From a candidate division WS6 bacterium OLB20 (GTDB lineage Bacteria; Patescibacteriota; Dojkabacteria; B142; OLB20), in contig JYNZ01000001.1 in the NCBI GenBank assembly GCA_001567355.1, forward strand, positions 5,944-69,943: DNA of 64,000 nt, read 5' to 3'. Position 1 is the stretch's first letter, and each line of letters starts with the position of its first letter. The position numbers and the translations under genes were made by a program. Below, one piece after another: positions 28,850 to 41,625 of this stretch. The notes beneath the pieces are model-generated. The model was given only the letters and a program-made list of their open reading frames with translations. It was not told where the DNA came from and ran no database searches.

Positions 28850-29462
28850 ATGCCACTAGTTATCTCTCCAGACGATATCAAAACCCGCATAGAAGGATAC
28901 GATCCCAGACGATCAGAACTGGTTCATCGGCATTCTGTCAGGATCGCAAATAAAAAAATTCTCAGATGCCTTGAAAGACAATGCCTATACGAATGTAATA
29001 CTGCTAGCTTGCGGTGCTGCCTCGGGAAAAAGCGAATATCTCGAATATGCTCTATCAAACGTCAATTCGATCATATATGACAGTACGCTCTCGGCACTCG
29101 ATGCTGCAAAGATCAAGGTTCGCAACTCACTCAAAAAGAAAAAGAACGTAAAACTGGTTTGTGTGATTCCTGATTCGCTGTATCGTTCTTTTCTGGCGTT
29201 CATTAACAGAGAGCGTCAGTACCCGGTCAAGCGTTTCTTTGCTACTCATGCCGGCTGCAGATCGGTCGTGCTGACGTTATTATCCCGCTATCCGGAAATT
29301 GAAATTGAGATTATTGAAAGTTATACTGAAGATAGTAAAATCAGGTTCCGCAGGAAGGAATTTGCAAACAGAATTGAGGTTGCAGACTATTTACAGGGAC
29401 TGCAAATGACTTCAAATCAGATAGAAAAACAGATACAGGAACATATCAGCAATGAAATCTAA
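28850..29462 (+). pseudogene. zeta-toxin-like P-loop kinase, frameshifted at an A7 tract
   Basis: Two ORFs (28850-29080 and 28971-29462) lie in different frames. The second carries Walker A ILLACGAASGKSE. An A7 homopolymer at about 28952-28958 sits at the junction. Confidence 0.45.
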
Positions 29463-29682
29463 AATCGCACAATACAACAAAGCACTGGAAAAGGGACGCT
29501 CTACCAGACATGTGTTTAGCAGAGGAGGCGCCTGGGTTGTTAAGAAAGCGAGTGCTACAAAAGCTTCGCGCGTTGTTGACACTAAAAAGGAAGCTGTTGC
29601 GCTAGCAAGAAAAATGAGCAAACGCACCAATTCGCGTCTGGTGATTCACAGCAAAGACGGGAGGATAGTTAGTGTTGAGTAG
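29452..29682 (+). CDS. DUF2188-family small protein
   Basis: HVFSRGGAWVVKKASATKASRVVDTKKEAVALARKMSKRTNSRLVIHSKDGRI matches the DUF2188 pattern. Confidence 0.55.
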   Translation: MKSKIAQYNKALEKGRSTRHVFSRGGAWVVKKASATKASRVVDTKKEAVALARKMSKRTNSRLVIHSKDGRIVSVE

Positions 29683-29730
29683 GACTGCCGTGTTGCAGAG
29701 ATGCTACTATAAAACAGTTACCCTCCTGAT

Positions 29731-30225
29731 GTGGCGCATGCAAAATACATAGTTGCTGATCTTCTTTCGGTAGATGCCGATGTACTCGTAAATTCTGCCA
29801 ACCGCAGTCTGCTGGCAGGCTCTGGTGTGTGCGGTCAGATATTTACAGTAGCAGGTAAACAACAGCTTGAAGCAGAGTGTCTGAGAATACTACAAGACCG
29901 TGGAGTGAGGTTTCTTGGGGACGGGACATCAGTCATGACCGGCGCATATAACCTGCCGTTTCAGGCAATCATTCATTCGATAACACCCAAGAATCATGTC
30001 GGTGACATCACAAAGGTGTACGACTGCTATCACTCTGCTATGCAACTGGCCATTGCTAACGGATATCAATCGATTGTGTTTCCTTTGCTCGGGACGGGAG
30101 TAAATAACATACCCGCTGAGTATTCAGGGGAACAGGCGATCAGGGCTGTAGATGCTGTTGGTGATATTTTGACAGTGTATTTTTGTTCAAGAGATGCGAG
30201 TCTGGTTGAACTGTTTCGTGGATAG
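29731..30225 (+). CDS. Macro-domain protein (ADP-ribose binding or processing)
   Basis: VNSANRSLLAGSGVCGQI...GTSVMTGAYNLPFQAIIHSITP...SIVFPLLGTGVNNIP are typical macro-domain motifs. Confidence 0.75.
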   Translation: MAHAKYIVADLLSVDADVLVNSANRSLLAGSGVCGQIFTVAGKQQLEAECLRILQDRGVRFLGDGTSVMTGAYNLPFQAIIHSITPKNHVGDITKVYDCYHSAMQLAIANGYQSIVFPLLGTGVNNIPAEYSGEQAIRAVDAVGDILTVYFCSRDASLVELFRG

Positions 30226-30516: not shown

Positions 30517-30846
30517 CTAGCTGATCCACCTACCCACCTGATCACAACTCACGACCTTGTCATCCTTATCAAACTCTACAATCCAGGTACCGCCGTCGCC
30601 GGCCAGTGGTCCTGCATGACAGCCAAATTCAATCTGATACCTTTTCTCGGATAACTTATGTGCTTTGATGTAGTGACCGTACACTGCCTCATCGGTGATT
30701 CCGAAGGGTGAGGAGTGTTTGGTGAATAGCTCTTTGATGGATTTACCCTCCTTTAGGTGATCCTGGGCAAGTTGGACGGCAAGGCAGCTGCCTGGAGAGG
30801 CTGCGTTTAAGAAGTTTACTACTTGTTTGTCTGAAAGTTTTGGCAA
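30517..30846 (-). CDS. hypothetical protein
   Basis: 109-aa ORF, last gene of the co-directional cluster and abutting the HAD gene by 1 nt. Confidence 0.4.
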   Translation of the reverse strand: MPKLSDKQVVNFLNAASPGSCLAVQLAQDHLKEGKSIKELFTKHSSPFGITDEAVYGHYIKAHKLSEKRYQIEFGCHAGPLAGDGGTWIVEFDKDDKVVSCDQVGRWIS

Positions 30847-31455
30847 TTAAGTATCTATTCTCTCTGTTACATACGATTTAAATTCATCGAGATTTGTGTA
30901 CAGGAATGCATCAAAGCCAAGTTGCTTTAGTGCTTCGACATTAACCTCATGGTCATCGCTCATCAGGATTTCGTTTGGTTTAAGGTCGAGTCGGCTTGCA
31001 AGTGTTTGAAATATTTGCGGTGAGGGTTTTGTTATCCCTTCTTCATAGGAGGTAACGATGACATCAAAGCTTGCTGACAGGTTGAATCTTTCTTTCAGGC
31101 TTTCAAAGCGGTCGGGGAAGTTGTTAGTGCAAATAGCAGTCTTGATACCTTGATCACGAAGTGTTTCCACAAAACTTACAGTATCCGGATTTGTGTTATA
31201 ACTGCTGATCAATAGTTCTACAAGTTCTTCTCTAGTTGCGTCTATCTCCCAGGTTGAGATTGCATAGTTCCAATACTCCTCACTGCTTATCACCCCACAT
31301 TTGTACCTTTGCATCTCCTCACTCTTAAGGTAGACGTCAACGATGTCCTGTTTTGAAAGCCCATACTTATTGACCAGAGAACTTATGTAGGTTTCTGTAC
31401 CACCTTCAAAATAGACTCCGTCCAGGTCAAATACGACTGCTTTGATTTCGGCCAT
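30847..31455 (-). CDS. HAD-superfamily hydrolase
   Basis: Motif I VVFDLDGV, a cap domain, and motif IV-like LMSDDHEVN. Confidence 0.7.
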   Translation of the reverse strand: MAEIKAVVFDLDGVYFEGGTETYISSLVNKYGLSKQDIVDVYLKSEEMQRYKCGVISSEEYWNYAISTWEIDATREELVELLISSYNTNPDTVSFVETLRDQGIKTAICTNNFPDRFESLKERFNLSASFDVIVTSYEEGITKPSPQIFQTLASRLDLKPNEILMSDDHEVNVEALKQLGFDAFLYTNLDEFKSYVTERIDT

Positions 31456-31463
31456 TAAATTGG

Positions 31464-31841
31464 TTAATTAGATAATATTTCAAGTATCGCTTCGACTTGT
31501 CTTGCGTCAAGCACCATCTCCGGGTACAACCCATGTCGGTACTTTTTGATGATGTGTTGAATCTTTGCAAAAGGGATGGTCTTTGTGTCTTCAGTCTCAG
31601 CAAACTTGATCTGTGAGGTAAAACCGCCTTTCCATGCACCCTTTTCGACTGGGTTACCTGGTTCACCATCAGGTTTTAGTGGTCCTGTGATCTCAAAGGT
31701 GCTTGTGTTGTATAAAAACAAGATGTCGTCTGATTGTATTTTGGAGACGTGACCCCAGAGACCTGGCTCTTCACCAAGGAGCATGCGCTCGTATACTTCT
31801 GGTTTGGTTTTGGCTGTGCAGCGGAAGATGTATCCGGTCAT
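31464..31841 (-). CDS. PUA-like beta-barrel protein (DCD/EVE-type)
   Basis: GYIFRCTAKTKPEVYERMLLG, ILFLYNTSTFEITGP and EKGAWKGG parallel the DCD-domain motifs FGYIFMCN...LFG, LFLYNYST...HGI and AWE. Confidence 0.45.
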   Translation of the reverse strand: MTGYIFRCTAKTKPEVYERMLLGEEPGLWGHVSKIQSDDILFLYNTSTFEITGPLKPDGEPGNPVEKGAWKGGFTSQIKFAETEDTKTIPFAKIQHIIKKYRHGLYPEMVLDARQVEAILEILSN

Positions 31842-32443
31842 TCTAGTTTGTCTCCATAATGATTCTTTTTCAGTTGTCTTATCTTTACTCTTAATGCATT
31901 CACTCTACGATCATTTTCAGGTAGGATTTGAGATTTCTTCTTGAAAAACAGATGTAATGGTATATATGCGACCGCAAATCCAATGATTGTACTTATGTAT
32001 ATGTGAATTTGGAGAACGTTTGAAAGAATGAGAGATGAAGACATGAGTATAAGGAAAAACGCAAGACTAAGCAGCTTCGTTAACCATGTATTCAACTTCT
32101 CTTCTTTATATTTTGTCTTACCTGCATGCTCTAGAAACTCTTCTATGGAATACGAATCAAAACTAAAGTCACCTGCCCAAGTTGTAAAATGGTATGTGTA
32201 AACTCTTCCTTCGTGATAAGCATAACGTAGCTTATAGATGTTAAACAAATCCATTGCTTCAGTAATAAGTTTTTTTTGATCTAGAGAAAATCTTGCGTCA
32301 AATGATTCGTGGGGTAATTCATCCCAAAACATGAACTCTAGACCGTTTTCCTTACAGAAAGAACGAAACTGAGGTACAACAACATTGTTGTTTAATGATT
32401 TCTTTTCTTCCTGCCAACTTTCAAAATCCTGCATGATATACAC
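31838..32443 (-). CDS. hypothetical protein with C-terminal transmembrane helices
   Basis: 201 aa, overlapping the downstream DCD-like gene by 4 nt. Confidence 0.4.
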   Translation of the reverse strand: MYIMQDFESWQEEKKSLNNNVVVPQFRSFCKENGLEFMFWDELPHESFDARFSLDQKKLITEAMDLFNIYKLRYAYHEGRVYTYHFTTWAGDFSFDSYSIEEFLEHAGKTKYKEEKLNTWLTKLLSLAFFLILMSSSLILSNVLQIHIYISTIIGFAVAYIPLHLFFKKKSQILPENDRRVNALRVKIRQLKKNHYGDKLE

Positions 32444-32487: not shown

Positions 32488-35400
32488 TCAAAAGAACCTT
32501 GTCAGCTTCTCGAGAATCGTCTCTCTACTCTTGGCACGTTCCTGATTTGGAGTAAAGCGAGACTTGGGTGGCATGACCTTTGTCAGTGCAGTACCTGATG
32601 TCGTTAGACCACCATCACGAAAGGCACTCTCGATGTATTTATACGTTGCCTCTTTGTTCAGGTTTTCTTCGTTAATAATCTGCTCCAGTTCTTCTATCTT
32701 CTTTTTTTCGACATATTTGTGCCACTCGGTGTCAACTGCTGCTTGAGAATCCAGTGACAGAATAAACTGATTGATCAAGTCTTTTTTGTTGCGTAGTTCA
32801 ACACTGGAGTCGATAGCCTTGTTAATGTCCACCAGAATCTCTTTATCTTTGGTATGACTGTCATGATACTGTTTGATCAGCCTTAGAATATAGTCAATGT
32901 TTATTTCGACCTGTTTGATCAGTTCCATCTCAAACACCAGGTCATCATTGATGTTTTCCTTCTCGCCCTTATCTTTGTCGCGGAACTCGTTGTAGAGGTC
33001 GATGTACATGCTGTGATAATCCTGCACGTCCCTTGGTGACAGGATTTCGTTACCTGCAAACTCGTCAAATGTGACAAGAATATTGCGGACACGCAGAATT
33101 TTTCCGTACAGCTTAATAAAGTCCTTCTGGTGTTGTTCACCTTCGATGCGCTCACCAATGGGGTACTCGGCAATAAGCTGTTCGATCAAATCTTTGTAGC
33201 CGGGTACATCCTTGCCTTCATCCGTGTAGCCTTCGTAGTAGTCCTTGTATGGTTTAAGCAGTACGATTCCGCTTGCCTCTTTATCGCCAAACAGGGCGAT
33301 TGCCTCGTTTGTCTTACCCTCCAGATTGCGGAAGCAGACGATATTACCAAATGTTTTTACACTGTTAAGGATGCGGTTGGTGCGTGAGTATGCCTGTAAT
33401 AATCCATGCATGCGCAGGTTTTTATCAACCCACAGCGTGTTAAGAGTTGTGGCGTCAAAGCCTGTTAAAAACATGTTAACAACGATCAGAATATCAACCT
33501 CAGTTTTTTTGACACGTTCGCTGACGTCTTTATAGTAGTTCTGGAACTTATCTGAGGAGGTATCATACGATGTGCCGAACTGATTATTGTAGTCTTTGAT
33601 TGCATTCTCTAAAAAGTCACGTGAGCTGGCATCCAGTCCGCTGGTATCCTCTGAATTTTCATCGATCATACCGTCCAGGTCTTCGTCGTTAACTCCAAAG
33701 CTGTATATCAGGGCAAGTTTGAGCTGTTTGTCGCTGGGTAGACCTTCAAGCTGTCGCTTAAACTCAGCGTAGTACTTTTTGGCTGCATCAATGGAGGATA
33801 CGGCAAAGATTGAGTTAAAGCCTGCCAGTCTGCGATCTTGAATTTTGTAGTAACTGTTGCGTTTGGTCTTTTGATCAAAATGCTCTCGGATGTAGGTAAC
33901 AATATTTGCCAGTCGCTCGGGGGACTCAAGTGCCGCTGCGCGGTCAATGTCGTTTACCTGCTCGTCTTCGATATCTTCTGCCTCGCGCACGGTCGAGACG
34001 TAGTCGACCTTAAAGGGCAACACATTTTTGTCATTGATGGCATCAACGATGGTATAGGTATGCAGTTTGTCTCCAAAAGCCTGCTGCGTAGTTTTAAAGT
34101 CCGGTCTGCCACCTGATGAGGCATTGACTGCAAAAATTGGTGTGCCGGTAAAGCCAAACAGATGGTAGTTGTTAAATGCTTTGGTGATGGCGGCATGCAT
34201 ACTGCCAAACTGTGATCTGTGACATTCGTCAAAAATCAGCACGACATGTCCATCAAACAGTGTGTGCCCACTGTTACGGCTAATAAACCTGTCCAGCTTT
34301 TGAATAGTCGTGATGATAATACGGGCGTTTGGGTCTTCTAGCTGCTTTTTAAGTATCTTTGTTGAGGTATTACTGTTGGCTGCTCCTTCCTCAAATTTGT
34401 CGTATTCCTTCATGGTCTGGTAGTCCAGGTCTTTACGGTCAACGACAAATACGACCTTGTCGACATCAGGCAGTTTGCTGGCAAGCTGAGCTGTTTTAAA
34501 ACTGGTCAGCGTTTTACCAGAACCTGTGGTGTGCCAGATGTAGCCACCTGCCTCGACTGTACCTGTTTTTTTGTAGTTGGTGCTGACCTCGATGCGGTTA
34601 AGGATGCGTTCTGTAGCGACAATCTGATAGGGTCGCATCACCAGAAGCTGCTGTTCGGAGGTAAATACACAGTAACGTGTCAAAATTCGCAGCAGTGAAT
34701 GTTTGGCAAAAAACGTCTTGGCAAAGTCGATCAGGTCAGTAATCGGTTTGTTGGTGGCATCTGCCCACCAGCTTGTGAACTCAAAACTGTTGCTGGTACG
34801 TCTGCCCTTTTTGGCTTTAGCAGAGCTGGTGCTGTCTTTAATGTGCTGCTTGCGGGTGGTGTTACTGTAGTACTTGGTATGTGTACCGTTTGAGATGACA
34901 AATATCTGCACGTACTCAAACAGTCCGGATTCTGCCCAAAAGCTGTCACGCTGGTAGCGGTTGATCTGATTAAATGCCTCCTGGATTGCCACACCTCGGC
35001 GCTTAAGCTCAATATGCACCAGTGGCAGACCGTTTACCAGCACGGTTACATCATAGCGATTGGTATAGTTGCCTTTATCTGTTGAGTACTGATTGATAAC
35101 CTGCAGGGTATTATCATGAATGTTTTCTTTGCTCAGCAGGTAGATGTTTTTACTTGTGCCGTCATCCCGTTTTAGTGTTTTGATGTAGTCCTCCTGGATT
35201 GTGGCAGTTTTTTCGGCAATGCTCTGGTTTGAGTTGGCAATCTCAGTACCAAAAAAGTGCTGCCATTCGTTATCACTAAAGGTGTAATCATTAAGCTTCT
35301 CAAGTTGGGTGCGCAGGTTAGCTTTCAGGTCTTCAGAGGTTGTGATATTTAAGTACTCATAGGCCTGTGACTCTAACTGCTTAATAAATGCTTGCTCCAG

Positions 35401-35508
35401 CTCTGCCTCGCTTTGATAGTGTTCTGCTCTTTTTGTATCACGGGTGTATTCTGCCACAACTGTGCTTTGGTTACTTTCAATGACCAGGTTGTACTTGGGG
35501 TCAGACAT
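32488..35508 (-). CDS. hsdR: Type I restriction enzyme R subunit
   Basis: Helicase motif I HTTGSGKTLTS, motif II LIFDECHRSQFG, and a nuclease region upstream. 1006 aa. Confidence 0.9.
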   Translation of the reverse strand: MSDPKYNLVIESNQSTVVAEYTRDTKRAEHYQSEAELEQAFIKQLESQAYEYLNITTSEDLKANLRTQLEKLNDYTFSDNEWQHFFGTEIANSNQSIAEKTATIQEDYIKTLKRDDGTSKNIYLLSKENIHDNTLQVINQYSTDKGNYTNRYDVTVLVNGLPLVHIELKRRGVAIQEAFNQINRYQRDSFWAESGLFEYVQIFVISNGTHTKYYSNTTRKQHIKDSTSSAKAKKGRRTSNSFEFTSWWADATNKPITDLIDFAKTFFAKHSLLRILTRYCVFTSEQQLLVMRPYQIVATERILNRIEVSTNYKKTGTVEAGGYIWHTTGSGKTLTSFKTAQLASKLPDVDKVVFVVDRKDLDYQTMKEYDKFEEGAANSNTSTKILKKQLEDPNARIIITTIQKLDRFISRNSGHTLFDGHVVLIFDECHRSQFGSMHAAITKAFNNYHLFGFTGTPIFAVNASSGGRPDFKTTQQAFGDKLHTYTIVDAINDKNVLPFKVDYVSTVREAEDIEDEQVNDIDRAAALESPERLANIVTYIREHFDQKTKRNSYYKIQDRRLAGFNSIFAVSSIDAAKKYYAEFKRQLEGLPSDKQLKLALIYSFGVNDEDLDGMIDENSEDTSGLDASSRDFLENAIKDYNNQFGTSYDTSSDKFQNYYKDVSERVKKTEVDILIVVNMFLTGFDATTLNTLWVDKNLRMHGLLQAYSRTNRILNSVKTFGNIVCFRNLEGKTNEAIALFGDKEASGIVLLKPYKDYYEGYTDEGKDVPGYKDLIEQLIAEYPIGERIEGEQHQKDFIKLYGKILRVRNILVTFDEFAGNEILSPRDVQDYHSMYIDLYNEFRDKDKGEKENINDDLVFEMELIKQVEINIDYILRLIKQYHDSHTKDKEILVDINKAIDSSVELRNKKDLINQFILSLDSQAAVDTEWHKYVEKKKIEELEQIINEENLNKEATYKYIESAFRDGGLTTSGTALTKVMPPKSRFTPNQERAKSRETILEKLTRFF

Positions 35509-35534: not shown

Positions 35535-36768
35535 TCATGAAGTCTTGAGTTCTTTAAAGGTAAGCAGTTTGTTGCGGTAGTACTCGTATTGTTTGCGCCG
35601 AGCGTTGAGCTCGGCAGGGAGACCGACGGTTAAATCGGTAGTTAATCTATTGAAACGATCCAATACATCAACTATTTTTTCTTGTTCTTCTTTTGTTGGA
35701 ATGGGAATTTTGGCTTTTCCAATCCATTTTGAATGTATTGATGAGATCTTTGCCGTTCGTATATGTCTCCTTATCTGCATGCGAAACTTTTTTCGTTTGT
35801 AAGAAGTACGATACGTATTTCGGATTTAGTTTATGTGTAAAAATGAAGCAAGCATCATGAACAACTATATCCTGCTCACCAAGCCAAGCAACTCCACCAC
35901 CAATGTCCTCAATTGTCTCGCCAGCTGCGACAATCACAACATCACCGTGCTTTGCAACACGAAGCCTGTTTGCTAGAGTCTCGGGTAGAAAAGAGATTGC
36001 ATCAGTTGCCCATGCACCATAGTGTGTGTACATTTCCCCATAATGAATACATGGTTGTCCTGTATCGACGATGTCGTCCTTTACAAATCTCTTGCCACGA
36101 GTAAACATACCTACTTCATCGAGTGGTTTACATGGTGACTTTTCAAGTACGTACAAATCTTCTAAGAAATACTCATACTGCTTCCTCCTCGCCTCCAGCT
36201 CTGCCTCCAGCTCTGCCTCCAATTGTGTGAACTTGTCGAGGATGCTGACAATCTCCTGCTGGACTGCGAGGGGTGGGAGGGGGATTTTGAAGCTTCTAAT
36301 CATCTCCAGATTTAATCCTCCCCTTGTACCATCACCCGAGGAGATGGTCCGAAGCTGTTGGTACTGGGTAGATAAGAAGTGATAAAGAAAATCACTATCA
36401 AGTCTTTCGTTAGGAATGATTGAGCAGAGAGACTGATTTGTACATAATTCAATTCGTGTTCTAGCGACAAGTCCTCTTGTCTTGCCCTGTCCTGCAAGCG
36501 CAATCACTACAGTGTAAGGAGGCACTAGTTTTGTACTACATGAATCATATCCTACTTGTGTGATTTTTTTGTCGGTTTCAAATATCGTTTTCTTATTAAC
36601 TTCTCCTGAACTCATCCAAGGAATTGTTCCGTTCTCCCAGAATTCTGTCACCTTTGATCTAGGAGTTGCACCTGCTAAGCATTCGGCAACTTCTTCAATG
36701 AATACAAATTCGACTCCTTCAGGGCATTTCTCGGCAATCAATTGTTCGAGTTTGGATTGGTGGTTCAT
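35535..36768 (-). pseudogene. hsdS: Type I restriction-modification specificity subunit, frameshifted near the C-terminal conserved region
   Basis: The 366-aa ORF holds target-recognition domain 1, the central conserved region IPLPPLAVQQEIVSILDKFTQLEAEL and target-recognition domain 2. The C-terminal conserved region (IPIPTKEEQEKIVDVLDRFNRL) is in another frame, in an 81-aa ORF. A T6 run at about 35788-35793 lies in the junction zone. Confidence 0.75.
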
Positions 36769-37289
36769 GGTGTAATCTGTTCAATAATTGTGTCAAATTC
36801 GATTGGCTCTTGGTATTGTCTCCCAGCGGGAAGAATAACTTTGAATGCAAATTGATAGTTAAGTCTCTCGTCATTTATATATGCTTGTAACTTTTCACTA
36901 TCATCAATAGTAGAGCTGGATTTCTTAGCTTCGATTACTGCTAGGTTGTTACTTGTTCCGCGATGGTGAATAATAATATCAGGGTATACAGACACACCGC
37001 CGTCCAAAATGTCTTGTAGAAACTTTCTTCGTTTATCTGTTGGCGCTGATTCTAATTTGCTAAGTACTTCTTCTTGCTTTTCACTCCACAGTTGCACTAA
37101 CTTACCCTCACCTAAGGTTCTGTTATATTCGCAATCTACATTCCAGTCTGGAAGCAATTGTTGCAAATACTCTGCAAGTTTATGAGTGATGCTGCGTTCA
37201 CTAGCATCTACCTGTAGTAGAAGACCGTCTCGAGCTAGAAGCGTTTGGTATGCAGTAATGATTTTTGCTTTTAATGGGTCAGCAGTCAT
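36765..37289 (-). CDS. hypothetical PD-(D/E)xK nuclease-fold protein
   Basis: VYPDIIIHH...LAVIEAKK gives the hhhD...ExK spacing. It lies between the ATPase gene and hsdS on the same strand with 1-4 nt gaps. Confidence 0.4.
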   Translation of the reverse strand: MTADPLKAKIITAYQTLLARDGLLLQVDASERSITHKLAEYLQQLLPDWNVDCEYNRTLGEGKLVQLWSEKQEEVLSKLESAPTDKRRKFLQDILDGGVSVYPDIIIHHRGTSNNLAVIEAKKSSSTIDDSEKLQAYINDERLNYQFAFKVILPAGRQYQEPIEFDTIIEQITP

Positions 37290-37290
37290 G

Positions 37291-39875
37291 TTAGTTTAGA
37301 TTTAATTTCTGCATTCGTTTCTTCAGTGCAGCATCTCCACCTTCAAGAATATTCACCATGTCATCTTGTATTTGCTTCAGTTCAATTCCTCCGTTGTGAT
37401 ACTTGAGGGTATTGTTTTCGTTTTCTGCAACTATCACATTTTCCGAATCAGTCAGGAGTAGTAGGTTAGCGCTATGTGTAGCCACAATCACTTGACGTTT
37501 TTCCTTTTGAGTTAGTAGAAGCCTTCTTAGGTCATTTGAAATACCAGAGACATCAATATCATTCTCTGGCTGGTCAATAATTATCGGATATCTACTTTTT
37601 GACAGATTGAAGACAAGATCTAAAAGTGCCATTGCTTTTTGTCCACCAGTCATGTTTTCAAAATCTATCAATTCTTCTCCCTGCTGATATTTCACAGATT
37701 TTGTGAAATCGATATCGTATCTGCAGCTCAACAACGTCACTAACGCGCTTTCTATATCACCACCTGTTGTCTTCAACCTTGCCTTATCTGAACCAGTAAT
37801 AACGTCCTCAATAATCTGAATCAGCTCGTCCTTTCGAAAATCTCGTTTCTCATCAATAAACTTTCTGAAACGTTCCCCAGATCTTCCGTCAATGAATACA
37901 TCAAAGAAAGTACGTTTATAATCATCTACACCGTAACTAACCGTAAAATCAAATGTTATAAAAGCGAATTCATCAAATGCATTTTTGAGTGTTTCAACTA
38001 TTCCATCGATTTTTTTCTCAAAAGATAGGTATAAATCCGCCGTTTCAGTAATTATTTTATTCAGCTCAAGAGTTGATTTATTGATAAATTTTTCCAGTTT
38101 CTCTATTTCTTTTCTCTCTTCAATTAATATGTTTATTTCCTTTAGAATCTTCTCAATGGTTGTATTTTGTTGTAATTTCGATGTTATCGGGATTAGCTTT
38201 CTTTTCTAAGATGTCTTTCTTTTCTTTTTTTGGCTTGAGTCTCAGTCATTAGTTCTGCAAATAGAGAGTTCAGATAGACCTTAATTTCTTGATTAGATAG
38301 TTTCTCAATCTGTTTTTCAATTAACTCTAGCGTTGTATGAGATAATCCAGAGAACGCTTCGTCGTCAACTGTAATGAAACTCATCTCTTCTCTGCTATTT
38401 ATGTTCGCAATAATTCTAATATCTTGCTCTAACAATTTTATCTCTTTGCTAAGAGATTCTATCTCTGAAGAATATTCTGTTTGATTTTTGATATCCTCAT
38501 CACTTATCGCGACCTTACCAAGCTTATTAATTTCTTCTTGCTTAAGCTTTATTGCTTCTTCTTTATCTATTACTTTTCCAAGAGGTTTTAATTGACGAGT
38601 GGTGTCAACAATCTGTTTTTGCATACTTAAAGCCTCCTTTAGTTTTGCATGAATTTTAAGTTCTATTGAGTTAACCATCTCGGATTTACTTACATCTGCA
38701 TTCTTGAATATCTCGTTATTGAAGAGGCGATCCCTAAGTAACTGATCTCGCTTATCGTATTCCCTACCATCTTCATAGGTGATAGTTGATAGGTAGTTCT
38801 GAGGTATATACTCAACATATTTATTTTCGGAACTATTGTCAGACCATTGAATCGCAAAGTCTTTCAATTTGTGAATTTCTTTAACATCGGGTTGTACTTG
38901 TTCACGAAGCACGTCGTAAGCAATATGTTTAAGTAACACGGACTTACCTGCACCACGTTTCCCAATAACAGAATTCATATCCCTGTTAAAGTACAACGTG
39001 CGGGTTTCGCCATCTTGGTTGTACTCTATTTTGTTGATAAATAGTTCAGGAGATGAGTTTTTGCTTTCAGATGGAGCTCTATCTTGTATCAACACTCTGT
39101 TTTTATAGTCAACAACGGCTTGTCTCAGTGTCTCAAAGCAAGAATCTCCTTTTACCCATGTAAATTTCTTTCCAATTTGATCTAAACTGTGAGCGTCACT
39201 ACTTTGGAATATAGCTTTGGTGGTTAGTGGCTTTTCTACGTCTTCTCCTGTCCAGAATTTTATGTCGTCACTTATGTTTGCAACCTTGTTTGAAGAGTGA
39301 ATGACAAAATCAGAGTCTTTAGTGAGCGATTCATACATTATTGAACTTCTGGAATTCCCTTTGCCTCTGGACAACATTCCAACAAGTACCTTACCTCTAA
39401 GATTAGAAAGTGCATCATCACCTAACGTATTAGTCACATCTTTAAACTCAACTACAGCAATCTTTTTCTCATCTATTGATGTAGCTGCACTGAGCATTTT
39501 ATGACTGCCTGAAACAGAGCAGTTTAACTTTGTAAGAAAAGGGTCAATATCTTGCTTAGTCAATTCATTCGAAAAAACAAGATGGAGATCACAGCAATCA
39601 TCCTCTTTATTCGTATAAGTAAGCCGGAGCTCTAAGTTTAAGAAAACTACAATGCCAACTTTTTCAAGTTTATCTTTCAAACCCCAATCGTCGTCACTAA
39701 AATTGAAGTAGTTAGTTAGACCAACTACTTCTAAATTCTCGTCTTTGATTTTCTGTACATATTCATCCATAGATGAAGATGAAAAAGCATTCTCTAGTGA
39801 AGTATGGAACGAATGTAAGTGTAAATCCCACTTTTTCCATTCTGAACCTCGATTGATTTTTTTGTCGCTTTCCAT
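37291..39875 (-). pseudogene. PHP-domain plus ABC/SMC-like ATPase (Ppl-like defense protein), single frameshift at an A7 tract
   Basis: N-terminal PHP motifs WDLHLHS, CDLHLVF and SSDAHS. Walker A GKRGAGKS, then a long coiled coil. The reading frame stays open across 38193-38205 in a second frame, which continues to the ABC signature MTGGQKA, Walker B IIIDQPENDID and H-loop VATHS. The A7 tract is at about 38225-38231. Confidence 0.6.
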
Positions 39876-39876
39876 A

Positions 39877-41456
39877 TTATTTGTCCTCAATATCCCTGAC
39901 AATCTCATCTATCGCCACCCGCAACTCCTGCTGCTTTTTTACAATCTGCTCAATCTCTTTGTTGAGTTCCTTGATATCAATCACCTCACGGGTATCCTCT
40001 GCTTCAACATAGGTTGAAACACTGATTGTGTAGTCGTTTTCTGCAATCTCTTTGTTGTCCACCAGTCTGACAAAGTACTCTTCGTCTGTGCGGTTTACGT
40101 ATGCATCCAGAATTTTTATACGGTGAGGTTCGCTGAGTTTGTTTTTATTGCCGCTGCGTACAAACTGCTCTGAGGCATCAATAAACAGGGTTTTGTTATC
40201 TTTTTTACTCTTTTTAAGCACGATGATGCAGGTGGCAATGGTCACACCAAAAACAGGTCAGGTGGCAACTGGATTACCGCATCAACGTAGTTGTTATCAA
40301 TCAAGTACTTGCGTATCTTTTTTTCTGCACCGCCTCGGTACAGTACGCCCGGGAACTCAACAATGGCTGCTGTTCCACTGGTAGATAGCCACGAAAGCAT
40401 GTGCATGGTAAAAGCCAGGTCCGCTTTGCTTTTTGGTGCAAGTACTCCTGCCGGTGAAAATCTGGGGTCGTTAATGAGTAGCGGGTTGGCATCACCCTCC
40501 CACTTAATTGAATATGGCGGATTGGAGACAATAGCGTCAAATGGTTCGTCATCCCAGTGTTTAGGGTCAGTCAGCGTATCTCCGTGTGCTATGTCAAACT
40601 TTTCGTAGTTGATGTCATGCAAAAACATGTTGATACGACAGAGGTTATAGGTAGTCAAGTTGATCTCCTGCCCAAAAAAGCCCTGTCGCACGTTGTCTTT
40701 ACCCAGCACCTTGGCAAACTTGAGCAGTAGCGAACCTGATCCACAGGCAGGGTCATAGACTTTGTTTACTGACGTTTTGCCAACTGTAGTGATTTCTGCC
40801 AGTAGTTCACTGACCTCCTGCGGGGTAAAAAACTCACCTCCGGACTTACCTGCGTTAGATGCGTACATGCTCATCAGGTACTCATAGGCATCACCAAAGG
40901 CATCTATCGAGTTATCTGCATAATTACCAATCTTTAGACCTGCTACTGCCTCCATCAGGCTGGTGAGCTTTTTGTTGCGTTTTTCGACTGTATTTCCGAG
41001 CTTTCCTGAGCTCACATCAATATCATCAAACAGTCCCTTAAAGTCATCCTCGCTGTCTGCACCATTGGCAGAGCCCTCAATATTATTGAATATCTTCTCT
41101 AGTGTTTCGTTAAGATCGGGATCGTTTTTGGCACGTTTAACGACATTGGTAAACAATTCGCTGGGCAGGATATAAAAGCCCTTTTCTTTAACGGTGTCTG
41201 CCCTGCCGTATTCGGCGTCTTTGTCTGCGAGTGTGGCGTAGTCAAAGTCTTTGTTGCCTGCGCGCTGTTCTTCTTTATTGATGAACTCGGTCAGGTTTTC
41301 GCTGATAAAGCGGTAAAACAACATACCAAGCACGTACTGCTTAAAATCCCAGCCATCAACGCTACCACGCAGGTCATTGGCAATCTGCCAGATGGCGCGG
41401 TGTAGTTCTGAGCGTTCCTGGTCTTTGGTTACGGTTTTAGTATTTAACTTTGCCAT
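39877..41456 (-). pseudogene. hsdM: Type I restriction-modification DNA methyltransferase subunit, frameshifted
   Basis: HsdM N-terminal domain ([14 protein letters not shown]) and catalytic SNPPYS. The ORF ends ...QLPPDLFLV*, and the next ORF continues TIATCIIVLKK...LFIDAS. Canonical QLPPxLFFGTxIATCI would be restored by one extra T in the CTGTTTTTGGTG run (plus-strand A5 at about 40249-40253). Confidence 0.85.
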
Positions 41457-41625
41457 AGTTCTTCTGATTAATATTAAACTTGTTGCGACCGATATTCGAT
41501 CCAGAATAAAATAATGATGCACAATCACTATTTACGGTTATCATTTTTCCCATGAAGATGTCTGGACTACTTCTGTTTTGATTATACATCCAGTAAGTGA
41601 ACTAAATAACCCTCAAATATTGCTG

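What the first reader, a model, noticed from the sequence alone, without database searches (positions are those of the whole stretch)
30517..32443. Tightly coupled four-gene tail after hsdR: membrane protein, DCD/EVE-like PUA-fold protein, HAD hydrolase and a small protein
Directly downstream of hsdR, on the same strand and with 1-9 nt spacers or overlaps, lie four genes. These are a 201-aa protein with C-terminal transmembrane helices, a 125-aa protein whose motifs (YIFRCT...LLG, LFLYN...ITG, AWKGG) parallel the DCD/EVE branch of the PUA fold (readers of modified nucleic acid), a HAD phosphatase and a 109-aa protein. PUA-like readers together with small-molecule phosphatases recur in DNA-modification and modification-dependent restriction contexts. 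An operonic link to a Type I restriction-modification system is unusual and may be a modification-sensing or nucleotide-processing add-on.
Basis: partly seen in the sequence, partly recalled or inferred. Interest (0 to 1): 0.6.

Follow-up and report, generated by a model that had tools for sequence, protein, structure and literature searches.

The report
Modified-base reader tailing Type I restriction operon
Behind a Type I restriction-modification operon of an uncultured Dojkabacteria (CPR) genome sits a small DCD/EVE-like "modified-base reader" gene that recurs at that position in related genomes, while the membrane protein, HAD phosphatase and orphan gene around it are interchangeable cargo, so there is no conserved four-gene module.

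Summary
The four minus-strand ORFs exist at the stated coordinates, in candidate division WS6/Dojkabacteria bacterium OLB20. The domain calls hold. Gene 2 is a full-length Pfam DCD domain (E = 1e-14) and models as a PUA-like EVE/YTH fold. Gene 3 is an intact HAD-IA phosphatase. Gene 1 is a two-TM membrane protein. Gene 4 is a coding-like orphan.

Only the DCD gene is linked to restriction-modification. In 9 informative related CPR loci, 8 have it as the last conserved gene after hsdR, and the ninth has it after an N6-methyltransferase plus S subunit. These loci span three HsdR lineages (78%, 45% and 27% identity to the window's). The DCD tree disagrees with the HsdR tree, which indicates repeated capture.

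None of these loci holds a relative of gene 1, the HAD or gene 4. Close HAD relatives and gene-1 relatives lie elsewhere without DCD or hsdR. In sister elements the slots either side of DCD hold unrelated genes, including autonomous defence reverse transcriptases.

DCD/EVE association with Type I systems was already reported from comparative genomics (Bell, Wolf and Koonin 2020). This is therefore a new CPR member of a known, experimentally untested kind. A PUA-Cal-HAD-like DCD+HAD effector pair is not supported.

The parts
32488..35508 (-). hsdR, Type I restriction subunit (1006 aa; HSDR_N, SWI2_SNF2/ResIII, T1R_D3-like, EcoR124_C)
   Evidence: Pfam. It is 77-78% identical to the HsdR of loci L007, L010, L041, L043 and L045, which also carry DCD.
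31838..32434 (-). Gene 1 (slot X): 198-aa membrane protein. It has a conserved N-terminal domain of about 105 aa (PxYRxFCxxNxLxFHFWDELP ... EAMxLFN), a two-TM helical hairpin and a C-terminal RLxxLR helix. The family is uncharacterised and is not a conserved DCD partner.
   Evidence: There are 70 clusters at E <= 1e-3 in the exhaustive search; alignment. The AF2 model has pLDDT 92.5 and no PDB fold match. Its 20 metagenome loci carry no detectable relative of the window's hsdR, DCD or HAD and have variable neighbours.
31464..31841 (-). Gene 2: stand-alone 125-aa DCD-domain protein with a PUA-like EVE/YTH-type fold. It is the one conserved accessory gene at the 3' end of the Type I R-M operon.
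   Evidence: Pfam PF10539, E = 1.1e-14. AF2 pLDDT 82.5. Foldseek hits are VcaM4I EVE-HNH, YTH domains and the Pyrococcus horikoshii protein PH1033 (TMq 0.74). There are 19 homologues at about 50% identity, those with a source name being CPR. The position after hsdR recurs.
30847..31455 (-). Gene 3 (slot Y): 202-aa HAD-IA phosphatase with a C1 cap, related to the N-terminal phosphatase domain of epoxide hydrolase. Catalytic motifs are intact. It is not a conserved DCD partner.
   Evidence: Pfam, NCBIfam and PDB sequence matches; motifs. About 40 relatives at 48-70% identity are all about 200 aa. Four sampled loci lie in contexts with no adjacent R-M gene and no DCD.
30517..30846 (-). Gene 4: 109-aa orphan ORF. 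Its TTG start follows the HAD stop codon directly, in the same frame.
   Evidence: The only match among 5.8 billion proteins is itself. No family hits. Codon usage is coding-like. HAD relatives are not longer, so it is not a lost fusion.
35535..36768 (-). hsdS, specificity subunit, split into 366-aa and 81-aa ORFs by a frameshift near an A6 run
   Evidence: Methylase_S hits on both pieces. tblastn with L010 HsdS changes frame.
36765..37289 (-). PD-Lambda-3_A-like defence gene embedded in the operon
   Evidence: PADLOC PDLC03986, E = 4e-28.
37291..39908 (-). TrlF/Ppl-like PHP + ABC-type ATPase defence gene embedded in the operon, split by frameshifts
   Evidence: NCBIfam NF045780 on both pieces, E = 1e-67 and 3e-40. 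PADLOC Ppl. Pfam PHP and ABC_tran.
39877..41528 (-). hsdM, N6-adenine methyltransferase subunit, split at a T5 run
   Evidence: HsdM_N and N6_Mtase hits. The single-ORF L007 HsdM (82% identity) aligns across two frames of the window.

Best explanation
The segment is the 3' tail of a Type I R-M operon. The operon's HsdR has an EcoR124-like C-terminus. It sits on a low-GC defence island of about 14 kb (roughly 28.5-42.4 kb) in Dojkabacteria bacterium OLB20.

One of the four tail genes, the 125-aa DCD protein, is a genuine and recurrent accessory of Type I R-M operons in CPR bacteria. It is a stand-alone PUA-like domain of the EVE/YTH/DCD kind, a fold that in characterised relatives holds a flipped-out modified base in a pocket.

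Inferred mechanism: the DCD protein reads a base modification. The most plausible target is N6-methyladenine, the mark written by the N6_Mtase-type HsdM that accompanies it in every locus. A foreign modification is the alternative. It then passes that readout to the R-M complex. This could extend HsdR restriction to modified DNA that escapes classical Type I restriction (the Bell-Wolf-Koonin proposal), or it could report methylation state.

The other three genes are cargo. They occupy two variable slots, X between hsdR and DCD and Y after DCD. In sister elements these slots hold unrelated genes, some of them self-sufficient defence genes. Gene 1 is a member of a widespread uncharacterised membrane-protein family found in variable islands. 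Gene 3 is an ordinary HAD-IA phosphatase of a family found without R-M or DCD. Gene 4 is a lineage-specific orphan.

Shown: domain identities, fold, recurrence of DCD after hsdR, and non-conservation of the other three. Inferred: ligand, partner and effect on restriction.
For: DCD identity and fold:
- Pfam PF10539 is matched above threshold and over the full length.
- The model has pLDDT 82.5.
- The best PDB folds are the EVE-HNH modification-dependent endonuclease VcaM4I, the m6A-reading YTH domains and PH1033, with probabilities 0.99-1.0 and TMq up to 0.74.

Recurrence:
- In 9 informative loci besides the window, DCD follows hsdR on the same strand in 8.
- In L002 and L014 it is 20-21 nt after hsdR. 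In L005 it is 26 nt after an extra N6-MTase that follows hsdR. In L007, L010, L041, L043 and L045 one variable gene intervenes.
- In the ninth locus (L001) it follows an N6-MTase plus S subunit.

Independence of lineage:
- The HsdRs fall into three groups: 77-78%, 45-46% and 27% identity to the window's. The last has a different C-terminal domain, T1RH-like_C.
- L014's DCD is 73-74% identical to the L007-group DCDs although the HsdRs are only 25-28% identical. The same linkage therefore arose more than once.

DCD needs no X or Y partner:
- L002, L005 and L014 have no X gene.

X and Y are cargo:
- X proteins are mutually unrelated.
- L043 has a DRT UG14-like reverse transcriptase in X and a retron-type RT-DUF3800 in Y. 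PADLOC lists RT-DUF3800 as a single-gene system.
- The same operons carry other inserted defence genes: AbiEii, OLD-like, AAA_13, and TrlF plus PD-Lambda-3.

No relatives of the other three genes:
- There is no HAD, gene-1 or gene-4 relative in any DCD locus.

Literature:
- A DCD/EVE association with Type I systems, and its predicted role in reading modified DNA, is published (PMC7641849).
Against: - No biochemical evidence exists for any prokaryotic DCD protein. Ligand, partner and effect are inferred.
- The conserved pocket residues (for example W70, Y44, F74, which are invariant) could not be mapped onto the model.
- The tight packing (4-nt overlap with gene 1, 8-nt spacer to the HAD) is also what a functional module would show.
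- Several X and Y proteins have no recognisable function, so a DCD-dependent role for some of them cannot be excluded.
- The sample is small (about 20 proteins, 9 informative loci). Six of the ten HsdRs, counting the window's, belong to one related element family, and all loci are metagenome assemblies.
- hsdM and hsdS are split by frameshifts here. If these are real, the system is decaying.
Confidence: 0.62

Rival explanations
1. One reading: DCD, the HAD and perhaps the membrane protein form a modification-sensing, nucleotide-processing abortive-infection add-on that works like PUA-Cal-HAD. DCD would sense a methylated nucleotide released when methylated DNA is degraded. The HAD would then dephosphorylate (d)NTPs, and the membrane protein would act as a second effector.
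For: - The genes are on the same strand and tightly packed (4-nt overlap, 8-nt spacer), with no terminator-like site.
- There is a precedent: a PUA-like sensor plus a C1-cap HAD phosphatase that converts dATP to dADP on sensing m6-dAMP, and PUA-like domains of that family are found embedded in R-M operons with N6-adenine MTases (PMC12871103).
- The HAD here is also a C1-cap type with intact catalytic motifs.
- The slots next to DCD are always filled by something effector-like in the L007-type elements.
Against: - 0 of 9 DCD loci carry a HAD or a gene-1 relative.
- HAD relatives at 59-69% identity have no adjacent R-M gene and no DCD.
- In PUA-Cal-HAD systems the HAD is tied to a Calcineurin-CE or MazG effector. 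No such domain is found in any island ORF.
- The HAD has no significant PADLOC hit.
- DCD occurs without any X or Y gene in L002, L005 and L014.
Confidence: 0.12
2. DCD has no functional tie to restriction. It is a backbone or passenger gene of mobile defence islands (for example the serine-recombinase elements) that happens to sit beside Type I operons.
For: - L007, L041 and L045 share 95-97% identical serine recombinases two genes downstream of DCD.
- All loci look like variable islands packed with defence cargo.
- L008 shows DCD followed by Fic and recombinases.
Against: - DCD keeps the same position directly after hsdR or an MTase in loci without the recombinase (window, L002, L005, L014) and with three unrelated HsdR lineages.
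- The DCD and HsdR trees are incongruent, which implies repeated placement at the same spot.
- An R-M methyltransferase gene is seen upstream in eight of the nine informative loci. L045 starts inside hsdS, so its hsdM is out of view.
Confidence: 0.1
3. DCD is a regulator or RNA reader rather than a DNA-restriction specificity factor. It might be a YTH-like reader of methylated RNA, or a factor that controls R-M expression or restriction alleviation.
For: - Many of the best fold matches are YTH domains that read m6A in RNA.
- Eukaryotic DCD proteins are predicted RNA binders.
- It is a small stand-alone protein at the operon end.
Against: - The top fold hit (VcaM4I) reads modified DNA, as does the YTH-McrB fusion described in the literature.
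- No HTH or other regulatory domain is present.
- There is no direct evidence either way.
Confidence: 0.1

Closest known systems
EVE/DCD-domain genes associated with Type I restriction systems (Bell, Wolf and Koonin, BMC Biol 2020, PMC7641849)
   Same: - A PUA-like DCD domain encoded in a Type I R-M operon.
- Predicted to read modified bases and to contribute to restriction.
   Different: - That survey describes prokaryotic DCD as rare and mostly in archaea and hyperthermophilic bacteria. CPR/Dojkabacteria names do not occur in the supplementary files held.
- Here the protein is a stand-alone 125-aa domain, not fused to a methyltransferase, a PD-(D/E)XK nuclease or McrB.
- New here: the fixed position after hsdR across three HsdR lineages, and the variable flanking slots.
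- Neither study has experimental support.
PUA-Cal-HAD anti-phage system (Zhang et al., bioRxiv 2026, PMC12871103)
   Same: - A PUA-like domain and a C1-cap HAD phosphatase are encoded side by side.
- PUA-like domains of that family also occur in R-M operons with N6-adenine MTases.
   Different: - There is no Calcineurin-CE or MazG effector here.
- The PUA-like domain is a separate protein of the DCD family.
- The HAD is not co-conserved with it.
- No filament or dNTP-depletion evidence exists.
Modification-dependent (Type IV) restriction enzymes with PUA-like readers: VcaM4I (EVE-HNH) and YTH-McrB
   Same: VcaM4I and YTH domains are the best structural matches.
   Different: Here it is a separate small protein next to a classical modification-blocked Type I system.
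PrrC anticodon nuclease embedded in the EcoprrI Type I locus
   Same: An accessory gene housed inside a Type I R-M operon, whose activity is coupled to the R-M complex.
   Different: - PrrC is an ABC-ATPase-type anticodon nuclease, not a PUA-like reader.
- Coupling of DCD to HsdR is only inferred.
Plant DCD (development and cell death / N-rich) proteins, Pfam PF10539
   Same: - Same Pfam family, with a full-length match.
- The LFLYN and (P)AQ(I/V)(R/K)F-type motifs are shared. The motif names are from my own knowledge.
   Different: - The plant proteins are eukaryotic, multi-domain and stress- or cell-death-associated.
- No R-M context.

Membership tests
DCD domain (Pfam PF10539, Dev_Cell_Death) | Profile match above the curated gathering score, over the whole domain | tested here: met
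   54.7 bits against a cut-off of 27.8, E = 1.1e-14. Residues 3-122 match profile positions 2-125 of 126. All 19 homologues carry the same precomputed Pfam call.
DCD domain (Pfam PF10539, Dev_Cell_Death) | Conserved family motifs (N-terminal IF.C...LFG/LLG, LFL(F/Y)N, PAQ(V/I)) | tested here: met
   The protein has YIFRC at 4, LLGEE at 21, LFLYN at 41 and SQIKF at 76 (FPAQIRF in homologues). These positions are invariant or nearly invariant in alignment A2. The motif definitions come from my own knowledge of the family.
PUA-like superfamily (EVE/YTH/ASCH-type pseudo-barrel) | Beta-barrel fold with structural similarity to solved EVE or YTH domains | tested here: met
   AF2 pLDDT 82.5, pTM 0.79. 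Foldseek PDB hits: VcaM4I E = 1e-4; YTHDC2 E = 3e-4; PH1033 E = 8.5e-4 with TMq 0.74. There is no sequence-level PDB hit.
PUA-like superfamily (EVE/YTH/ASCH-type pseudo-barrel) | Binding of a modified base in an aromatic pocket | not testable with these tools
   Invariant aromatic residues exist (Y44, W70, F74, F80). Model coordinates could not be inspected, and binding needs experiment.
Type I restriction-modification system | HsdR with nuclease N-domain, SF2 motor and C-terminal domain | tested here: met
   HSDR_N, SWI2_SNF2/ResIII, T1R_D3-like and EcoR124_C all match with E <= 1e-39, in an intact 1006-aa ORF.
Type I restriction-modification system | Intact HsdM and HsdS genes | tested here: inconclusive
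   Both are present with the right domains, but each is split by a frameshift at a homopolymer run. The genome was sequenced on IonTorrent, which its authors state is prone to frameshift errors (PMC4821891).
PUA-Cal-HAD defence system | [quoted passage not shown] | tested here: not met
   No metallophosphatase, calcineurin or MazG hit appears in any ORF listed for the 28.1-42.3 kb stretch (Pfam; NCBIfam). DCD is a single-domain 125-aa protein.
PUA-Cal-HAD defence system | HAD phosphatase co-conserved with the PUA-like gene | tested here: not met
   No HAD relative is found in the DCD loci fetched. No DCD relative is found in 4 HAD loci.
HAD superfamily, subfamily IA | Four catalytic motifs and a C1 cap; profile match | tested here: met
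   PF00702 E = 3.9e-23 and PF13419 E = 1.7e-16. TIGR01509 scores 55.2 bits against a cut-off of 29.4. The sequence has DLDG at 10, CTNN at 109, TKPS at 142 and SDDH at 166. No equivalog-level model reaches its cut-off, so the substrate is unknown.
Known anti-phage systems (PADLOC 2.0) | Any of the four tail genes matching a defence-system model | tested here: not met
   Genes 1, 2 and 4 have no hits. The HAD has only a chance-level hit to RmrA (E = 0.019).

The most novel reading that the evidence does not exclude
The DCD protein may be a sensor hub rather than a mere specificity factor. Appended to Type I R-M operons of CPR mobile elements, it would read the methylation state or modified nucleotides. 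It would then license whichever effector sits in the two tightly coupled, freely swappable slots beside it. In this window those are a membrane protein and a HAD phosphatase; elsewhere they include proteins carrying an RNxxxH (HEPN-type) motif and reverse transcriptases. That would make a modular second-line abortive-infection layer wired to restriction-modification, combining the logic of PrrC/EcoprrI with that of PUA-Cal-HAD.
Probability: 0.13. Interest if true: 0.7.

Novelty: new member of a known kind. Interest (0 to 1): 0.38.

Why it matters
- How a separate PUA-like reader would cooperate with a classical Type I enzyme is unknown, because that enzyme is blocked, not triggered, by methylation. 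No prokaryotic DCD protein has been studied experimentally.
- The CPR loci give a compact test case: hsdMSR plus one 125-aa gene, sometimes with nothing else (L002, L014).
- The repeated capture of DCD by unrelated HsdR lineages argues that the link is functional.
- If DCD lets Type I systems see modified phage DNA, or reports methylation state, it would add a fourth subunit class to the best-studied R-M type.
- The analysis also removes a tempting but unsupported reading, a DCD+HAD nucleotide-depletion module.
- It shows that these operons have insertion slots that collect defence cargo.

Tried and rejected
1. Gene 4 as a lost C-terminal part of the HAD, or a read-through product. Rejected: about 40 HAD relatives are all about 200 aa, and gene 4 has no homologue.
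2. Gene 1 as a homologue of the proteins between hsdR and DCD in L001, L007 and L010. Rejected by alignment and BLASTP.
3. A search for a conserved partner of gene 1. Its 20 metagenome loci have variable neighbours: TPR, NT5C, Schlafen/AlbA_2, AAA_14, Fic, EcoRI methylase, AbiJ, PDDEXK_2, T5orf172 and PRiA4_ORF3.
4. A fold match for gene 1. No PDB hit had E < 1.
5. Sequence-level PDB relatives of DCD. None was found with the single sequence or the profile.
6. DCD and gene-1 relatives in IMG/VR viral contigs, PLSDB plasmids and INPHARED phages. None was found.
7. Island ends. No tRNA, no convincing flanking direct repeats and no Rfam family were found in 27-44 kb.
8. Shared right-hand neighbours between the window and the DCD loci (zeta-like, DUF2188, Macro). 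None was found.
10. HEPN assignment of some X and Y proteins rests only on RNxxxH motifs and one weak BLASTP hit. Pfam, PADLOC and PHROGs gave nothing, so it is left as a lead.
11. Bell et al.'s supplementary files held here do not mention WS6, OLB20 or Dojkabacteria.
Full report
**Source and observation**

The window comes from candidate division WS6 (Dojkabacteria, CPR) bacterium OLB20. The 125-aa, 202-aa and 109-aa proteins each match a database entry from that genome at 100% identity.

The ORF list shows hsdR at 35508..32488 on the minus strand. It is followed by ORFs at 32443..31838, 31841..31464, 31455..30847 and 30846..30517.

Two small corrections apply. Gene 1 most likely starts at the ATG at 32434 (198 aa), as in the database copy P0107. 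That makes the hsdR-to-gene-1 gap 53 nt. The other junctions are a 4-nt ATGA overlap, an 8-nt spacer, and a TTG directly after the HAD stop codon. No minus-strand terminator-like site lies in the tail, and promoter-like sites are not enriched. Co-transcription is therefore plausible but untested.

**What the four genes are**

- **Gene 2 (DCD).** It matches Pfam Dev_Cell_Death (PF10539) over its whole length, at E = 1.1e-14 and 54.7 bits against a cut-off of 27.8. An AlphaFold2 model built on 16 homologues has pLDDT 82.5. By Foldseek it resembles the EVE-HNH modification-dependent endonuclease VcaM4I, many m6A-reading YTH domains, and the Pyrococcus horikoshii protein PH1033 (TMq 0.74).
- **Gene 3 (HAD).** It is a HAD-IA phosphatase (PF00702, E = 4e-23; TIGR01509 above its cut-off) with all four catalytic motifs. 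No equivalog model reaches its cut-off, so the substrate is unknown. Its best solved relatives are generic, such as the N-terminal phosphatase domain of epoxide hydrolase and beta-phosphoglucomutase.
- **Gene 1.** It has no Pfam, NCBIfam, PADLOC or PHROG hit. It nevertheless belongs to a real family: 70 representative clusters at E <= 1e-3. Members share a conserved N-terminal domain of about 105 aa, a two-TM hairpin and a C-terminal helix. The model is confident (pLDDT 92.5) but has no PDB fold match.
- **Gene 4.** It has no homologue other than itself among 5.8 billion proteins. Its codon usage is coding-like in frame (+0.235 per codon, as for known genes) and not out of frame. It is probably a real orphan gene.

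**Surroundings**

The operon reads as follows on the minus strand:
- hsdM (split)
- a TrlF/Ppl-like PHP + ABC ATPase (split)
- a PD-Lambda-3_A-like gene
- hsdS (split)
- hsdR
- the four tail genes

Convergent genes for a zeta-toxin-like kinase (split), DUF2188 and a Macro domain follow.

The stretch from about 28.5 to 42.4 kb has lower GC (0.35-0.46) than the flanks (0.47-0.53). The tail therefore lies inside an island, not at its edge. No tRNA, flanking repeat or Rfam family marks the ends.

All four frameshifts sit in or near homopolymer-rich sequence. The OLB genomes were sequenced on IonTorrent PGM, and their authors report persistent frameshifts (PMC4821891). The breaks are probably sequencing errors.

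**Conservation test for DCD**

The DCD protein has 19 homologues at about 50% identity, 80-127 aa long. Those that carry a source name come from Dojkabacteria or Woesebacteria, and the genome scan adds a Saccharibacteria fragment. I recovered their genomic context in 9 informative loci.

| Locus | Arrangement around DCD |
|---|---|
| L002 | 21 nt after hsdR |
| L014 | 20 nt after hsdR |
| L005 | 26 nt after an extra N6-MTase that follows hsdR |
| L007, L010, L041, L043, L045 | one variable gene lies between hsdR and DCD |
| L001 | follows an N6-MTase, an S subunit and a Panacea-type toxin-antitoxin pair |

The HsdRs form three lineages, at 77-78%, 45-46% and 27% identity to the window's. The last carries a different C-terminal domain.

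The DCD tree does not follow the HsdR tree. L014's DCD is 73-74% identical to the L007-group DCDs, while the HsdRs are 25-28% identical. Within the L007 group, HsdR is 93-97% identical but DCD only 73-85%. The same gene was therefore placed at the same spot behind hsdR more than once, and it evolves faster than the enzyme. This is the strongest argument here for a functional link between DCD and Type I R-M.

**Conservation test for the other three genes**

tblastn with gene 1, the HAD and gene 4 found nothing in any DCD locus.

HAD relatives at 59-69% identity lie among DUF4287, DUF1801, OmdA, NUDIX or flavodoxin-like genes. None has DCD or hsdR beside it, although L019 and L020 carry an MmeI-type R-M methyltransferase about 4 kb away on the opposite strand.

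Twenty metagenome loci with gene-1 relatives have variable neighbours typical of mobile or defence islands: Fic, AbiJ, Schlafen/AlbA_2, EcoRI methylase, PDDEXK_2, T5orf172 and PRiA4_ORF3. tblastn found no relative of the window's hsdR, DCD or HAD in them.

In the sister elements L007, L041, L043 and L045 the layout is hsdM-hsdS-hsdR-X-DCD-Y. In L007, L041 and L045 this is followed by a serine recombinase that is 95-97% identical among the three; the L043 contig ends soon after Y. X and Y are tightly packed, with overlaps of 1-11 nt or a 3-nt spacer, but they are not homologous between elements. In L043, X is a DRT UG14-like reverse transcriptase and Y is a retron-type RT-DUF3800. PADLOC lists RT-DUF3800 as a single-gene system.

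The window's gene 1 and HAD occupy these same X and Y slots. Together with the AbiEii, OLD-like, AAA_13, TrlF and PD-Lambda-3 genes inserted at other junctions of these operons, the simplest reading is that every junction of the operon collects independent cargo. DCD is the only conserved extra gene.

**Mechanism**

Shown: DCD is a PUA-like domain, and it is linked to Type I R-M with N6_Mtase-type HsdM.

Inferred from the characterised relatives (VcaM4I for modified cytosine in DNA, YTH for m6A): it holds a modified base in a pocket. Invariant aromatic residues that could form the pocket are Y44, W70 and F74.

The most likely role is the one proposed for EVE- and DCD-associated Type I systems. 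Reading the operon's own m6A mark is the alternative. Neither can be decided here.

**The PUA-Cal-HAD comparison**

A 2026 preprint shows a PUA-like sensor of m6-dAMP working with a C1-cap HAD phosphatase (PMC12871103). This makes a DCD+HAD pair tempting.

In those systems, however, the HAD is tied to a Calcineurin-CE or MazG effector. No such domain is present in the island. The HAD and DCD are also not co-conserved. I give this rival 0.12.

**Novelty and verdict**

The DCD/EVE link to Type I systems is published comparative genomics. CPR names do not occur in the main text or in the supplementary files held. No experimental work on a prokaryotic DCD protein turned up.

The finding is a new CPR member of a known, untested kind. 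Two additions come from this analysis: repeated capture behind unrelated HsdRs, and variable cargo slots on both sides of DCD.

The four-gene module is not supported. Interest is moderate at 0.38.

Noticed in passing
window 40242-40245 (hsdM), about 35780 (hsdS), 37776-38193 (TrlF-like), 28850-29462 (zeta-like): Four genes in about 13 kb are split by frameshifts in or near homopolymer-rich sequence. The genome was sequenced on IonTorrent PGM, whose persistent frameshifts the authors mention, so these are probably sequencing errors rather than pseudogenes.
   Followed up: partly
window 36765-39908 (-): A TrlF/Ppl-like PHP + ABC ATPase and a PD-Lambda-3_A-like gene are embedded between hsdM and hsdS. 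The operon itself acts as a defence island.
   Followed up: partly
window 28850-30225 (+): A convergent trio: a zeta-toxin-like P-loop kinase, DUF2188 and a Macro domain protein. This may be a toxin-antitoxin or ADP-ribose-related module at the island's other side.
   Followed up: no
L007 4289-10380; L041 2740-8868; L043 2958-9656; L045 678-6916: A family of CPR mobile elements with the layout hsdM-hsdS-hsdR-X-DCD-Y. In L007, L041 and L045 this is followed by a serine recombinase that is 95-97% identical among the three; the L043 contig ends soon after Y. X and Y differ completely between elements and overlap DCD by a few bases. L007 also has a terminase-like gene upstream.
   Followed up: partly
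L043 6081-7595 and 7968-9656: DCD is flanked on both sides by defence-type reverse transcriptases: a DRT UG14-like RT upstream and a retron-type RT-DUF3800 downstream.
   Followed up: partly
L014 6858-10375 compared with L007, L041, L043 and L045: The DCD and HsdR phylogenies are incongruent. DCD is 73-74% identical where HsdR is 25-28% identical and has a different C-terminal domain, which implies transfer of DCD between unrelated Type I operons.
   Followed up: yes
window 31838-32434; loci L021-L040: Gene 1 defines an unannotated membrane-protein family (70 clusters at 50% identity, many from marine and other metagenomes). It has a confident predicted structure and no PDB fold match. One relative (L021) is followed by an NT5C 5'-deoxynucleotidase.
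   Followed up: partly
L007 7360-8004 and 8374-9024; L041 6745-7518; L045 4910-5560: Several X and Y proteins carry RNxxxH or RNxxxxH motifs (RNGIAH, RNGLAH, RNKVIQH) of the HEPN RNase type. No profile library confirms this.
   Followed up: partly
L002 8445-8585; L005 8446-8583: A conserved 45-46-aa lysine- and glutamate-rich ORF (89% identity) follows DCD in the two loci that lack X and Y genes.
   Followed up: no
L014 2800-6850: The HsdS of this locus carries an inserted DUF559 endonuclease-like domain. It is followed by a 782-aa AAA_13 ATPase before hsdR.
   Followed up: no
L001 7076-8004: A SocA_Panacea-domain gene and a 140-aa protein with a weak Gp49/HigB-like hit lie between the S subunit and DCD, probably a Panacea-type toxin-antitoxin pair.
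   Followed up: no
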